IMG/VR virus record: IMGVR_UViG_3300045988_088999
Coordinates: 48,961 to 112,960 of that record
DNA: 64,000 nucleotides
Reading direction: 5' to 3' (one strand)
DNA from: a virus
A program made the translations under genes and the position numbers. Each line of letters starts with the position of its first letter. Position 1 is the stretch's first letter. Below the pieces are notes generated by a model. The model searched no databases, was not told the DNA's origin, and worked only from the letters and a program-made list of their open reading frames with translations. This document shows positions 48,136 to 48,552 of the stretch, in pieces.

Positions 48136-48252
48136 TTGGTGGCTGCGTATGGACTCGAACCATAAACCTCGTCCTTATAATGGAAAAATGTGTAGCTGTT
48201 ACTATCTAAAATAGATAGGTTTTACGCGCTCTAGCCTATTGAGCTACACAGC
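48136..48252 (-). ncRNA. 117-nt tRNA-like RNA: canonical acceptor, D- and T-arms with a ~45-nt insertion in place of the anticodon arm (candidate Y-RNA-like tRNA mimic or intron-containing tRNA)
   Basis: 5' GGCTGTG-TA-GCTC-AATAGGCTA-GAGC ... 3' TATGG-TTCGAGT-CCATA-CGCAGCC-A-CCA. The middle segment carries its own hairpin ctatcta/tagatag. I could not build a standard anticodon stem-loop. Confidence 0.5.
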
Positions 48253-48348
48253 CATAATGGTGAGTTTCAGGTCGCTCAACCGCAAATTAAGTTTTTGTTT
48301 TGTCCACAGCAGGACTGACAGGACTTGTTTAGCTTATAAACTGTCGTA

Positions 48349-48424
48349 TGGTGCGAAATACAAGACTCGAACTTGCAACTTCTACCTTGTAAGGGTAGCA
48401 CTCTCCCAGTTGAGTTAATCTCGC
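48349..48424 (-). tRNA. tRNA-Val (anticodon TAC), CCA encoded
   Basis: GCGAGAT-TA-ACTC-AACTGGGA-GAGT-G-CTACC-CTTACAA-GGTAG-AAGTT-GCAAG-TTCGAGT-CTTGT-ATTTCGC-A-CCA. Confidence 0.8.
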
Positions 48425-48432
48425 ATAATAAA

Positions 48433-48552
48433 TACAGGAGTTGGGGTCGAACCAACATCTTCGTCTTGGCTTTTAAGAAAAATAATTGCGGCTTATGTCT
48501 GCGTAGACACATTCTTATTTTGGCGATGTTTTACCATTGAAACCATCCTGTA
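48433..48552 (-). ncRNA. 120-nt tRNA-like RNA with perfect 7-bp acceptor stem, D-arm and T-arm, but a ~65-nt insertion replacing the anticodon arm (second candidate Y-RNA-like mimic)
   Basis: 5' TACAGGA-TG-GTTT-CAATGGTA-AAAC ... 3' GTTGG-TTCGACC-CCAAC-TCCTGTA. The insertion contains the hairpin tgtct-acgc-agaca. Confidence 0.5.

What the first reader, a model, noticed from the sequence alone, without database searches (positions are those of the whole stretch)
48136..48552. Two ~118-nt tRNA mimics in which an insertion replaces the anticodon arm: candidate Y-RNA-like partners of the phage Ro60
Elements 48136-48252 and 48433-48552 each have a well-paired 7-bp acceptor stem, a normal D-arm (GCTC-AATAGGCTA-GAGC and GTTT-CAATGGTA-AAAC), a canonical T-arm and either a CCA end or a plain 3' end. 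Between the D-arm and the T-arm sit ~45 and ~65 nt that carry their own hairpins (ctatcta/tagatag and tgtct-acgc-agaca), and I could not build a standard anticodon stem-loop. They are too short for group I introns and are not at the canonical intron site. Bacterial Y RNAs (YrlA type) are tRNA-like modules encoded near rsr, and a Ro60/Rsr ortholog lies 5 kb away at 53221-54720. So these could be Y-RNA-like ncRNAs rather than decoding tRNAs. Intron-containing tRNAs or degenerate tRNAs are the alternatives.
Basis: partly seen in the sequence, partly recalled or inferred. Interest (0 to 1): 0.7.

Follow-up and report, generated by a model that had tools for sequence, protein, structure and literature searches.

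The report
tRNAs carrying a Ro60-like protein handle
The two odd elements are real phage tRNA genes (Ile and Gly types) with a small conserved RNA module spliced into the anticodon stem; that module sits next to a Ro60-like phage protein in very different phages and matches the "Class I" small RNAs so far reported only in social amoebae, so the two RNAs are probably partners of that protein.

Summary
Both elements exist on the minus strand: A at 48137-48253 and B at 48433-48552. The anticodon arm is not replaced. A 40-nt (A) or 49-nt (B) module interrupts it, and removing the module in silico gives tRNA-Ile(UAU) and tRNA-Gly(GCC). The module has an A-rich strand, a covarying hairpin and a (U)UACAGCAA-like strand. 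It recurs in at least 98 distinct phage tRNA genes. A circularly permuted stand-alone form, AAG-stem-UUACAGCAA-variable-stem-CUUGU of about 60 nt, occurs in several copies beside DUF2828 genes. I found this in phages of Listeria, E. coli, Mycobacterium, Bacillus, Enterococcus, Staphylococcus, Campylobacter, Aeromonas and Vibrio. In 89 DUF2828-anchored loci, 84 carry it on the gene strand, mostly within 500 nt upstream. The window protein at 53221-54720 is DUF2828, and its AlphaFold model matches full-length Ro60. The stand-alone elements have the architecture of dictyostelid Class I RNAs and give sub-threshold hits to Rfam RF01414. Neither A nor B is a YrlA member. Most likely reading: a Y-RNA-like handle for a Ro60-like protein, grafted onto tRNAs. 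Binding is inferred from gene linkage only. Whether the module is excised is unresolved.

The parts
48137..48253 (-). Element A: a tRNA-Ile(UAU)-type gene with encoded ACCA, interrupted by a 40-nt module in the 5' strand of the anticodon stem.
   Evidence: Rfam tRNA 44.6 bits. Coordinates of the arms. ARAGORN calls tRNA-Ile(tat) after removal of the insertion. The sequence is identical or 96-99% identical in L001-L005.
48184..48224 (-). Module of A: A-rich linker, hairpin CUAUCUA-UUU-UAGAUAG (48202-48218), UAA, core CAGCUA (48193-48198) and a U-rich tail.
   Evidence: Model R2 was built only from modules of other phages. This is its best hit in the whole window: 48187-48226, 24.1 bits, E about 0.004. 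The layout is shared with 52 diverse modules.
48170..48183 (-). Anticodon arm of A downstream of the module: CC, loop AUUAUAA (anticodon UAU at 48177-48179), then GGACG. The first stem bases, CG(U), lie at 48224-48226.
   Evidence: Direct reading gives a perfect 5-bp stem after removal.
48433..48552 (-). Element B: a tRNA-Gly(GCC)-type body with U1-A72 and no CCA, carrying a 49-nt module between anticodon-stem position 31 and the loop AAGCCAA.
   Evidence: Compensatory changes in the acceptor, T and anticodon stems in L001-L005. ARAGORN calls tRNA-Gly(gcc) after removal. No Rfam tRNA hit.
48473..48521 (-). Module of B: linker AAAAUAAGAA, hairpin UGUGUCU-ACGC-AGACAUA (48494-48511), AG, core CCGCAA (48486-48491) and a U-rich tail.
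   Evidence: Second-best R2 hit in the window: 48480-48518, 19.2 bits, E about 0.05. The tetraloop varies among relatives while the stem is kept.
47751..47820 (-). Stand-alone Class-I-like element E1: AAAAGACACAU-C-CAGCAA, a variable 45 nt, then AUGUGUCUUUU.
   Evidence: 10-bp terminal stem read directly. R1 gives 43.5 bits, but this sequence was in the training alignment.
49231..49321 (-). Element E2: stem AGACGCA/UGCGUCU, UA-CAGCAA, then a degenerate tRNA-like body with D-like, anticodon-like and T arms. The Class-I-like stem takes the place of the acceptor stem.
   Evidence: R1 gives 37 bits, E 2.5e-5, and this sequence was not in the training set. Weak Rfam tRNA hit of 22.9 bits at 49235-49304.
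49077..49199 (-). Element E3 (weaker): stem AUAGACACG/CGUGUCUAA enclosing CAGCAA and the odd tRNA at 49086-49157.
   Evidence: R1 gives 19.5 bits, E 0.13. Rfam tRNA gives 41.1 bits with a poor acceptor stem.
54722..54769 (-). Element E4 in the leader of the Ro60-like gene: AGAUAC-AAU-CAGCAA, loop containing the Shine-Dalgarno AAAGGAG, then GUAUCU, 4 nt before the AUG.
   Evidence: Direct reading. R1 gives 24.9 bits, but this sequence was in the training alignment. The same arrangement occurs in L204 and in Vibrio phage R11Z.
53221..54720 (-). Ro60-like protein gene (Pfam DUF2828 plus DUF7788/vWA).
   Evidence: Pfam hits at 1e-49 and 2e-29. AlphaFold2 model with pLDDT 91. Top Foldseek PDB hits are full-length Ro60: 1yvr at E 4e-10 and TM 0.58, phage phiRo60 9kop, and 2i91.

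Best explanation
A and B are tRNA genes (Ile-UAU and Gly-GCC bodies) into whose anticodon stem a small structured RNA module has been grafted.

The module has four parts:
- an A-rich strand;
- a 7-9-bp helix whose sequence covaries;
- a conserved single strand, (C)UUA-CAGCAA. It reads CAGCUA in A and CCGCAA in B;
- a U-rich tail.

The module is a circular permutation of a roughly 60-nt stand-alone RNA: AAG-stem-UUACAGCAA-variable region-stem-CUUGU. Phages encode this stand-alone RNA in several copies right next to DUF2828 genes. DUF2828 proteins are structural homologues of Ro60, with a HEAT-repeat ring plus a vWA domain.

My inference is that the helix plus the CAGCAA strand is the binding handle for the phage Ro60-like protein. 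A and B would then be Y-RNA analogues whose second module is a complete tRNA. The RNA would tether the Ro-like ring to a tRNA body, and so to whatever recognises tRNAs. This would be part of the phage's tRNA/RNA-repair and anti-defence gene set. The copy in the gene's own leader probably allows autoregulation.

Shown: the anatomy, the conservation, the covariation, the gene linkage and the protein fold. Inferred: binding, tethering and autoregulation. Unresolved: whether the module stays in the mature RNA or is cut out to release a decoding tRNA.
For: 1. Module in tRNAs.
- A viral-contig scan that specified only the D- and T-arm sequences and an unusually long spacing returned at least 120 loci. 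In 83 of them a perfect acceptor stem closes around the insertion.
- 98 distinct elements carry the hairpin plus CAGCAA module.
- ARAGORN of 98 as tRNAs after removal of the insertion, against 1 of 98 before removal.

2. Motif.
- In 52 diverse modules the core is A44 C52 A45 G52 C52 A48 A52 out of 52, but membership of this set was defined by a regex that fixes most of these positions (e.g. AC[AT]GC[AGT]A, CCGCAA), so the near-invariance is largely by selection. A helix of unrelated sequence lies 0-3 nt upstream.
- On the helix, 83% of cells are paired and 95 cells show a change on both sides. Register-slid controls give 32-50% paired.

3. A and B belong to this class.
- Model R2 excluded the window's own clade. 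It ranks the A and B modules first and second in 128 kb searched.

4. Linkage to the protein.
- 29 of the 120 RNA-selected loci encode DUF2828, with the tRNA usually 150-900 nt upstream on the same strand.
- In 89 DUF2828-anchored loci, 84 have at least one CAGCAA-plus-helix element on the gene strand.
- The density is 3.08 per 10 kb on the gene strand and 0.47 on the other strand. 168 of 255 elements lie within 500 nt upstream.
- 83% of upstream CAGCAA sites have a helix, against 14% on the opposite strand.
- Model R1 finds nothing at E<=0.01 in 832 kb of control loci that lack the gene.

5. Breadth.
- Tandem copies lie beside the gene in phages A511, wV8, OhShagHennessy, PBC2, EfsSzw-1, 6ec, Los1, LAh_6 and R11Z.

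6. Protein fold.
- The best Foldseek hits are full-length Ro60.
- A preprint reports that Bas63 gp130 has high structural similarity to Ro60, lies directly upstream of that Felixounavirus's tRNA genes and counters the Ppl defence. Its authors guess that some tRNAs are Y RNAs (PMC11482910). I did not align gp130 to the window protein; the link rests on wV8, another Felixounavirus, encoding a DUF2828 homologue at the same position.

7. Permutation.
- 23 of 52 hairpin loops start with GU after a stem ending in U. This recreates the stand-alone 3' end ...CUUGU joined to the 5' start AAG/GAG.

8. Class I likeness.
- Seven LAh_6 elements hit RF01414 at 19-30 bits.
- The published Class I features are a start at AAG, a 6-bp covarying terminal stem, an 11-nt motif with U3, C6, C9, A10 and A11 conserved, an end at CUGU, a length of about 60 nt and clustered genes. 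All fit (PMC7919456).
Against: - No binding or expression data exist. The protein-RNA link rests on gene neighbourhood alone.
- A and B lie 4.7-5.0 kb from the gene, further than most examples, and their cores deviate from the near-invariant CAGCAA.
- Many of the 89 loci are close relatives, so the counts overstate the number of independent observations. The independent support is the nine cultured phage lineages.
- The stand-alone elements used for covariation were chosen for having a helix, which is circular. The strand and position contrasts are the non-circular evidence.
- The Rfam Class I scores are below the gathering score, and the window elements give no RF01414 hit.
- Well-kept anticodon arms with at least 30 different anticodons point to a decoding role. 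That fits an intron at least as well as a permanent handle.
Confidence: 0.6

Rival explanations
1. The modules are true introns. The pre-tRNAs are cut on both sides of the insertion and rejoined, for example by an unknown endonuclease plus the phage kinase/phosphatase and RNA ligase. This would yield ordinary tRNA-Ile(UAU) and tRNA-Gly(GCC). The conserved module would be only the splicing signal, or a released by-product. This rival can coexist with the main explanation.
For: - Precise removal restores a perfect 5-bp anticodon stem and a 7-nt loop in most members, with many different anticodons.
- ARAGORN of 98 as tRNAs after removal.
- The window has no other Ile(UAU) or Gly tRNA.
- The window encodes an RNA ligase, an AAA_33 kinase with an HD domain, a RlaP-like nucleotidyltransferase, a Thg1-like enzyme and a CCA-adding enzyme.
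- An insertion at positions 28-30 should clash with ribosomal contacts to the anticodon stem. This last point is general knowledge and was not tested here.
Against: - The insertion point varies from 26/27 to 31/32, and no conserved splice-site sequence is present.
- I ran no search for a bulge-helix-bulge motif, and no splicing-endonuclease domain was seen in the 30 ORFs I scanned.
- At 40-57 nt the insertions are far too short for group I introns, and no intron family hit appeared in Rfam.
- The subtype that includes B, with the insertion after position 31, leaves loops without U33 such as AAGCCAA and AAUCCAA.
- Several copies next to DUF2828 have decayed anticodon arms but keep the module and the acceptor, D and T arms: L173, L143, L279, L217 and L218.
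- The same module exists as a free-standing RNA with no tRNA around it.
Confidence: 0.22
2. The CAGCAA elements are cis-acting signals of phage tRNA or early operons, such as processing sites, terminators, anti-terminators or promoters. They would sit near DUF2828 only because that gene lives beside tRNA clusters. On this reading A and B are tRNAs that picked up such a signal.
For: - Many copies lie between tRNAs, for example in wV8, PBC2 and the window.
- One copy overlaps the ribosome-binding site of the DUF2828 gene.
Against: - The elements flank DUF2828 even where few or no tRNAs are annotated in the stretch examined. Examples are Staphylococcus phage 6ec (one tRNA in the stretch fetched), Campylobacter Los1 and the mycobacteriophage locus.
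- 66% lie within 500 nt upstream of the gene on its own strand.
- Thg1-anchored control loci give no hits. However, these loci carry almost no tRNAs, so they control for phage background, not for tRNA arrays.
- The dictyostelid relatives are abundant, stable, cytoplasmic small RNAs (PMC7919456).
Confidence: 0.1
3. A and B are members of the bacterial YrlA Y-RNA family.
For: - They combine tRNA-like arms with a Ro60-like gene on the same strand.
- A YrlA-like permuted tRNA domain does occur beside a DUF2828 gene in mycobacteriophage OhShagHennessy. It scores 39.8 bits against a gathering score of 69.
Against: - No YrlA hit covers A or B at E<=10. The only window hit, 48939-49053 at 21 bits, spans two adjacent tRNAs. 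The YrlA authors warn about this artefact.
- The topology is D, then anticodon, then T with an open acceptor stem, not T, acceptor loop, D.
- The one GNCGAAG match in B is not conserved in relatives.
Confidence: 0.02
4. A and B are decaying pseudo-tRNAs, or tRNAs hit by a short selfish DNA insertion, with no function.
For: - Standard tRNA finders miss them.
- B lacks U33 and CCA and begins with U1.
Against: - The stems covary.
- The module recurs with one conserved motif and a covarying helix in 98 distinct tRNAs from many phage lineages, and it is linked to one protein family.
Confidence: 0.03

Closest known systems
Ro60-Y RNA ribonucleoproteins, including bacterial and phage YrlA/Yrn1 and Thermus phage phiRo60 with Yrl1/Yrl2
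   Same: - A Ro60-fold ring protein is encoded next to, and on the same strand as, several small RNAs.
- Each RNA combines a helix carrying a short conserved single-stranded motif with a second module that mimics or is a tRNA.
- RNA-repair genes lie nearby.

Sources: PMC4201824, PMC12135203, PMC7824862.
   Different: - The protein belongs to Pfam DUF2828/DUF7788, not TROVE, and shows no detectable sequence similarity to Ro60 in the PDB.
- The conserved motif is UUACAGCAA, not GNCGAA or CGAA.
- In A and B the tRNA part is a complete, normally ordered tRNA with an anticodon arm and CCA. The handle is inserted in the anticodon stem rather than formed by the RNA ends.
- No Rfam YrlA hit.
Class I RNAs of dictyostelid social amoebae (Rfam RF01414)
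   Same: The stand-alone phage elements share these features:
- a start at AAG;
- a short terminal stem with compensatory changes;
- a conserved motif directly 3' of the 5' stem strand, with the same invariant positions (U3, C6, C9, A10, A11);
- a variable remainder and a 3' end of CU(U)GU;
- a length of about 60 nt and clustered genes.

   Different: - Class I RNAs were reported as unique to Dictyostelia, with Rnp1A as the known direct binder (PMC7919456).
- The phage copies score below the Rfam gathering score.
- A and B carry the element circularly permuted and capped by a loop, with off-consensus cores.
- Whether dictyostelids encode a DUF2828 protein was not tested here.
Intron-containing tRNAs: bacterial group I introns, and archaeal/eukaryal bulge-helix-bulge introns at non-canonical positions
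   Same: An intervening sequence lies inside a tRNA gene, and its precise removal restores a canonical anticodon arm. Non-canonical positions such as 29/30 are known in Archaea; this point is from general knowledge.
   Different: - The insertion is 40-57 nt with its own conserved motif, which is too short for group I.
- No splicing endonuclease is known in phages or bacteria.
- The position is variable.
- The same module also exists outside tRNAs.
Phage T4 stable RNAs species 1 and 2 (rnaC, rnaD), encoded in the tRNA cluster. I cite these from memory.
   Same: Small stable RNAs of unknown function encoded among phage tRNA genes.
   Different: I made no sequence or structure comparison, and T4 did not appear among the DUF2828 hits I inspected.

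Membership tests
YrlA (Rfam RF02553) | Score at or above the family gathering score (69 bits) against the covariance model. | tested here: not met
   No hit on A or B at E<=10. The only window hit, 21.3 bits at 48939-49053, spans the tRNA-Phe/tRNA-Glu pair.
YrlA (Rfam RF02553) | Permuted tRNA-like domain in the order T-arm, closed acceptor-like stem-loop, D-arm, with the RNA's 5' and 3' ends forming the Ro-binding stem (PMC4201824). | tested here: not met
YrlA (Rfam RF02553) | Conserved GNCGAAN0-1G motif near the 5' end. | tested here: not met
   A has none. B has GACGAAG at 48459-48465, in the 3' half, but it reads GGUGAAG in L001-L003.
YrlA (Rfam RF02553) | Encoded within 4 kb of a Ro60 (TROVE) gene and on the same strand. 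| tested here: inconclusive
   The strand is the same. B lies 4.7 kb and A 5.0 kb from the gene end at 53221. The protein has the Ro60 fold but is DUF2828, not TROVE.
tRNA (Rfam RF00005) | Cloverleaf with a 7-bp acceptor stem, D-arm, T-arm (GTTCGA) and a score at or above 29 bits. | tested here: met
   A scores 44.6 bits. B has all three arms, with covariation, but gives no Rfam hit, so this is met for A only.
tRNA (Rfam RF00005) | Contiguous 5-bp anticodon stem with a 7-nt loop, U33 and a purine at position 37. | tested here: not met
   As encoded, the stem (A) or the loop (B) is interrupted by 40 or 49 nt. After removal A is canonical (AUUAUAA), while B has A33 (AAGCCAA).
Dictyostelid Class I RNA (Rfam RF01414) | Score at or above the gathering score (41.5 bits). 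| tested here: not met
   Seven phage LAh_6 elements score 19.1-29.6 bits. No hit in window 47700-49350 at E<=10.
Dictyostelid Class I RNA (Rfam RF01414) | [quoted passage not shown] | tested here: met
   Met for the stand-alone phage elements. The consensus is aAAaGaCaC...GuGuCuUGU, with 93% of cells paired and 114 double-change cells. Window element E1 ends CUUUU. A and B carry the stem capped by a loop, i.e. permuted.
Dictyostelid Class I RNA (Rfam RF01414) | An 11-nt motif next to the 5' stem strand, with U3, C6, C9, A10 and A11 nearly invariant. | tested here: met
   The sites were picked by the fixed core CAGCAA. The flank was not selected and reads C(56/90) U(47) U(51) A(68) before CAGCAA. 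A has CAGCUA and B has CCGCAA, so each breaks one conserved position.
Dictyostelid Class I RNA (Rfam RF01414) | Expressed as an abundant, stable RNA of about 60 nt. | not testable with these tools
   No transcript data are available here.
Ro60/TROVE proteins (for the neighbouring gene) | HEAT-repeat ring plus a C-terminal vWA/MIDAS domain. | tested here: met
   AlphaFold2 model with pLDDT 91.4 and pTM 0.90. Foldseek hits 1yvr, 9kop, 2i91 and human Ro60 across about 550 aligned columns, at E 4e-10 to 7e-5.
Ro60/TROVE proteins (for the neighbouring gene) | Match to the Pfam TROVE domain, or sequence similarity to solved Ro60 structures. | tested here: not met
   Pfam gives DUF2828 and DUF7788, with weak vWA. 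phmmer against the PDB finds only a weak vWA match.
Group I or bulge-helix-bulge tRNA introns | Group I catalytic core, or a bulge-helix-bulge motif at the exon-intron junctions together with a splicing endonuclease. | tested here: inconclusive
   No intron family hit in Rfam, and 40-49 nt is too short for group I. I ran no formal bulge-helix-bulge search. No endonuclease of that type appeared among the 30 window ORFs scanned.

The most novel reading that the evidence does not exclude
Dictyostelid Class I RNAs and these phage elements would be one ancient RNA family whose cognate protein is the DUF2828 branch of the Ro60 superfamily. That would give Class I RNAs a candidate partner and function, in RNA surveillance, repair or conflict.

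The tRNA-embedded copies such as A and B would be permuted genes that produce two products from one transcript: a decoding tRNA, and a linear or circular Class-I-like RNA released by protein-mediated splicing using the phage ligase.
Probability: 0.15. Interest if true: 0.95.

Novelty: new variant of a known kind. Interest (0 to 1): 0.85.

Why it matters
If the inference holds, it matters in five ways.
- It identifies the missing RNA partners of a very widespread phage protein family. DUF2828 is present in 709 of about 50,700 deposited phage records, including Felix O1-like, A511/P100-like, Staphylococcus, Campylobacter and cluster L mycobacteriophages. A homologue has just been linked to defence evasion.
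- It extends the Ro60-Y RNA principle to a second protein branch with a different RNA code.
- It shows that an RNA class thought to be unique to social amoebae has close look-alikes in bacterial viruses. That makes the long-open question of what Class I RNAs do directly testable.
- It describes a new way of building a tRNA-linked regulatory RNA, by inserting a permuted protein handle into the anticodon stem.
- It explains why tRNA finders miss a recurrent class of phage tRNA genes.

Tried and rejected
- ARAGORN in intron mode called A as Glu(UUC) and B as Leu(UAA), with weak, mismatched stems and long variable arms. I rejected these calls in favour of the split-stem parse, which comparative data support.
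- MFE folding of A and B alone gave unremarkable z-scores of -1.9 and -2.4 and misfolded the cloverleaf, so it was uninformative.
- A megablast of the tRNA region against deposited phages found nothing. A distant blastn of A and B found only generic tRNA matches.
- One blast query used wrong coordinates, taken from reverse-complement numbering, and is void.
- Thg1-anchored relatives beyond the five closest contigs have no tRNA array near Thg1, so they gave no comparative data. I reused them as negative controls.
- A loose regex-plus-hairpin detector produced many false positives in single genomes: 14 hits against 6 expected in the window. I therefore relied on strand and position contrasts and on covariance models.
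- I looked at a pairing between the A-rich linker and the U-rich tail by eye only and did not establish it.
- A 9-bp complementarity between the 5' end of A and its insertion is specific to A and is probably chance.
- The repeated leader hairpin before tRNA-Arg(ACG) and tRNA-Ile(GAT) contains CAGCAA, but there it is base-paired. I did not count it as an element.
- The afdb50 fold library was unavailable and the Avesson 2011 paper is not held. I therefore could not check whether dictyostelids have a DUF2828 protein, or whether one is among the Class I-binding proteins.
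Full report
**1. Checking the observation**

The window carries a minus-strand tRNA array between about 46.6 and 51.6 kb. ARAGORN finds 13 tRNAs and Rfam adds one more. Neither tool, run over the whole window, reports the two flagged elements.

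It has acceptor GGCUGUG/CGCAGCC, a D-arm, a T-arm and an encoded ACCA.
- B runs 48552 to 48433. It has acceptor UACAGGA/UCCUGUA, a D-arm and a T-arm, but no CCA.

Searched locally, A reaches 44.6 bits on Rfam tRNA, above the gathering score of 29. The model skips 51 nt at the anticodon arm. B gets no tRNA hit.

Five related viral contigs carry both elements (Thg1 93-99% identical). A is nearly invariant among them. B shows compensatory changes in all three relevant stems:
- Acceptor: G-C changes to U-G and to U-A.
- T stem: U-A changes to C-G.
- A 5-bp anticodon stem: UCGCC/GACGA, UCACC/GGUGA and UCGCC/GGCGA.

The objects are therefore real and under selection.

**2. The anticodon arm is interrupted, not replaced**

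I scanned viral contigs with a pattern that fixed only a D-arm, a T-arm and an abnormally long spacing. It returned at least 120 loci, and in 83 of them a perfect 7-bp acceptor stem closes around the insertion.

Parsing these hits shows a common plan. After the D-arm and N26 come 0 to 5 nt of the 5' strand of the anticodon stem, most often 2 or 3. A 35-57-nt insertion follows. After it come the rest of that strand, a normal 7-nt loop, the complete 3' strand, the variable loop and the T-arm.

- A fits exactly: CG(U) | 40 nt | (U)CC-AUUAUAA-GGACG. This gives tRNA-Ile(UAU).
- B belongs to a rarer subtype in which the stem is complete and the insertion follows position 31. Its loop is AAGCCAA, with anticodon GCC and A33 instead of U33.

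After in-silico removal, ARAGORN with default settings of 98 distinct elements as tRNAs, against 1 of 98 before removal. A becomes Ile(UAU) and B becomes Gly(GCC).

**3. The inserted module**

Across 52 diverse modules the insertion has four parts:
- an A-rich 5' strand;
- a 6-10-bp hairpin of unrelated sequence;
- 0-3 nt, then a core that reads A44 C52 A45 G52 C52 A48 A52 out of 52. This set was selected with a regex that fixes most of these positions, so the count mainly describes the selection;
- a U-rich tail.

On a MAFFT alignment of 44 modules, 83% of helix cells are paired and 95 cells show a change on both sides. Register-slid controls give 32-50% paired.

A covariance model built from these modules, with the window's own clade excluded, ranks A's module first and B's second in the whole window on both strands:
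- A: 48187-48226, 24.1 bits, E about 0.004.
- B: 48480-48518, 19.2 bits, E about 0.05.

Their cores deviate from consensus by one base each. A has CAGCUA, a variant that recurs in other phages. B has CCGCAA.

**4. The neighbouring protein**

The ORF at 53221-54720 is Pfam DUF2828 plus DUF7788/vWA, not TROVE. It has no sequence similarity to solved Ro60 structures.

An AlphaFold2 model built on 42 homologues has pLDDT 91 and pTM 0.90. It matches full-length Ro60 best:
- Xenopus 1yvr, E 4e-10, TM 0.58.
- Thermus phage phiRo60, 9kop.
- 2i91 and human Ro60.

Mycobacteriophage annotators already call homologues "Ro-like RNA binding protein". A 2024 preprint notes that gp130 of Bas63, a Felixounavirus, has high structural similarity to Ro60, lies directly upstream of that phage's tRNA genes and counters the Ppl defence system. 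Its authors speculate that some tRNAs there are Y RNAs (PMC11482910). I did not align gp130 to the window protein; wV8, another Felixounavirus, has a DUF2828 homologue at the same position.

**5. Linkage of the module to the protein**

- Of the 120 loci selected purely by the RNA pattern, 29 encode a DUF2828 homologue at 27-46% identity. These are the loci with the CAGCAA module, and the tRNA is usually 150-900 nt upstream on the same strand.
- Conversely, most of 80 viral loci anchored on DUF2828 carry such a tRNA just upstream.
- Some of these gene-adjacent copies have decayed anticodon arms while keeping the module and the other arms.

**6. Stand-alone copies in cultured phages**

Reading the non-coding gaps next to DUF2828 in cultured phages revealed a free-standing version in tandem copies. 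Its form is stem strand, UUA-CAGCAA, about 35-45 variable nt ending A-rich, then the complementary strand.

| Phage | Copies seen |
|---|---|
| Listeria A511 | 3 |
| E. coli wV8 (Felix O1-like) | 4 |
| Mycobacteriophage OhShagHennessy | 3, flanking a sub-threshold YrlA-like permuted tRNA domain of 39.8 bits |
| Bacillus PBC2 | 8 |
| Enterococcus EfsSzw-1 | 3 |
| Staphylococcus 6ec | 3 |
| Campylobacter Los1 | 2 |
| Aeromonas LAh_6 | about 8 |
| Vibrio R11Z | 2 |

Sources.

The quantitative picture over 89 DUF2828-anchored loci (827 kb) is:
- 255 elements on the gene strand against 39 on the other strand.
- 84 of 89 loci have at least one element.
- 168 of 255 elements lie within 500 nt upstream of the gene.
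- 83% of CAGCAA sites in the 700 nt upstream have a helix of at least 7 bp. The figure is 14% on the opposite strand and 19% inside the gene.

The consensus is AAGRCRCUUA-CAGCAA ... GYGYCUUGU. Its helix shows abundant covariation, although those sequences had been chosen for having a helix. A model of it (R1) finds no hit at E<=0.01 in 832 kb of control phage loci that lack the gene.

**7. Other elements in the window**

R1, or direct reading, finds four more elements on the minus strand:
- 47751-47820: a stand-alone element.
- 49231-49321: 37 bits, E 2.5e-5, not in the training set. Its stem takes the place of the acceptor stem of a degenerate tRNA-like body.
- 49077-49199: weaker. It encloses the odd tRNA at 49086-49157.
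- 54722-54769: lies in the leader of the DUF2828 gene, with the Shine-Dalgarno sequence in its loop.

**8. The embedded module is a circular permutation of the stand-alone RNA**

In the stand-alone RNA the order is AAG-X-UUA-CAGCAA-variable-(A-rich)-Y-CUUGU. In the tRNAs the order is (A-rich)-Y-loop-X-UUA-CAGCAA.

The loop often begins GU after a stem ending in U, in 23 of 52 cases. This recreates ...CUUGU joined to AAG/GAG.

**9. Resemblance to dictyostelid Class I RNAs**

Rfam's model for Dictyostelium Class I RNAs (RF01414) gives sub-threshold hits to all seven tandem elements upstream of the LAh_6 gene. The scores are 19-30 bits against a gathering score of 41.5.

The published definition of Class I RNAs (PMC7919456) lists:
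- a length of 42-65 nt;
- a start at AAG;
- a 6-bp terminal stem kept by compensatory changes;
- an 11-nt motif next to the 5' stem strand with U3, C6, C9, A10 and A11 nearly invariant;
- a variable remainder and an end at CUGU;
- genes in clusters.

This matches the phage consensus point for point. That paper reports Class I RNAs as unique to Dictyostelia. I could not test whether dictyostelids encode DUF2828.

**10. Interpretation**

The best-supported reading is that helix plus UUACAGCAA is the handle recognised by the Ro60-like DUF2828 protein. A and B would then be tRNAs carrying that handle, functionally analogous to Y RNAs, whose second module is tRNA-like. They would act within a locus rich in tRNA and RNA-repair genes:
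- a Thg1-like enzyme;
- a PIN-PhoH protein;
- a kinase with an HD domain;
- a RlaP-like nucleotidyltransferase;
- an RNA ligase;
- a CCA-adding enzyme.

Binding, tethering and leader autoregulation are inferences from synteny and analogy.

The intron reading remains open and is compatible with this one. Clean restoration of the anticodon arm and the diversity of anticodons argue for it. The variable insertion site, the loops without U33, the decayed anticodon arms in some copies and the existence of free-standing elements argue that the module has a role of its own.

YrlA membership is rejected.

**11. Novelty and limits**

Full-text searches found several related items but no description of this RNA motif, of its link to DUF2828, or of tRNA-embedded copies. 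What they did find:
- Ro60-Y RNA work, including phage phiRo60.
- The Bas63 speculation that some tRNAs are Y RNAs.
- The Class I RNA papers.

I rate this a new variant of a known kind, namely a Ro60/Y-RNA-type pairing with a different protein branch and a different RNA code. It has an unexpected tie to an orphan eukaryotic RNA class.

The main caveats are three:
- There are no expression or binding data.
- Many metagenomic loci are redundant, so counts overstate independence.
- A and B themselves have off-consensus cores and lie about 5 kb from the gene.

Noticed in passing
window 47430-47517 and 47657-47744 (minus strand): tRNA-Lys(UUU) and tRNA-Thr(UGU) are 88 nt long and carry 13-15-nt extra variable arms. 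This is unusual for these class I tRNAs. The arms do not contain the CAGCAA module.
   Followed up: no
window 48831-48860 and 47282-47310 (minus strand): An identical leader of about 27 nt, GACUGCUGGAAAGACAGCAAUUUAU, forms a small hairpin (UGCUG-GAAAGA-CAGCA). It ends 5-6 nt before the 5' ends of tRNA-Arg(ACG) and tRNA-Ile(GAT). It contains CAGCAA, but there the motif is base-paired. It could be a processing signal or a degenerate element.
   Followed up: partly
window 49086-49157 (minus strand): A tRNA is seen only by Rfam (41 bits). It has a poorly paired acceptor stem and an odd anticodon loop, and ARAGORN misses it. It lies inside a Class-I-like stem at 49077-49199.
   Followed up: partly
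window 48556-48632 (minus strand) versus L001 12299-12384: The window has a 77-nt 'tRNA-Leu(AAG)' without the long variable arm expected of tRNA-Leu. The contig whose Thg1 is 99% identical has an 86-nt tRNA-Leu(GAG) at the same position.
   Followed up: no
window 50137-50979, 55786-56991, 57041-57946, 61414-62220, 62870-63991 and 12861-14327 (minus strand): A tRNA/RNA-repair style gene set: a Thg1-like enzyme, PIN-PhoH, an AAA_33 kinase with an HD domain, a RlaP-like nucleotidyltransferase, an RNA ligase with a PHA02142 OB fold, and a CCA-adding enzyme.
   Followed up: partly
window 2858-3526 (+) and 436-1644 (+): A reverse transcriptase ORF (RVT_1) lies near a DUF6273 protein. This may be a diversity-generating retroelement.
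   Followed up: no
window 8442-9296 and 51630-53162 (minus strand): Two SPFH/Band 7 (flotillin-like) genes. The second lies directly between the tRNA array and the Ro60-like gene.
   Followed up: no
L283 (Mycobacterium phage OhShagHennessy) 7440-7760: The 360-nt gap after the 'Ro-like' gene holds a sub-threshold YrlA-like permuted tRNA domain at 7544-7652 (39.8 bits, gathering score 69). Three helix-plus-CAGCAA motifs flank it. None of this is annotated in the record.
   Followed up: partly
L285 (Enterococcus phage EfsSzw-1) 3400-3900 and L289 (Aeromonas phage LAh_6) about 1540-1640: Cultured phages also have unannotated tRNA-like genes with a D-arm, CAGCAA and a T-arm next to or near DUF2828. 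These are candidate experimental systems for the embedded form.
   Followed up: no
window 55668-55717 (+ strand): A 9-bp stem plus CAGCAA lies on the strand opposite to the genes, inside an ORF. R1 gives 14.8 bits, E 1.3. It is probably chance.
   Followed up: no
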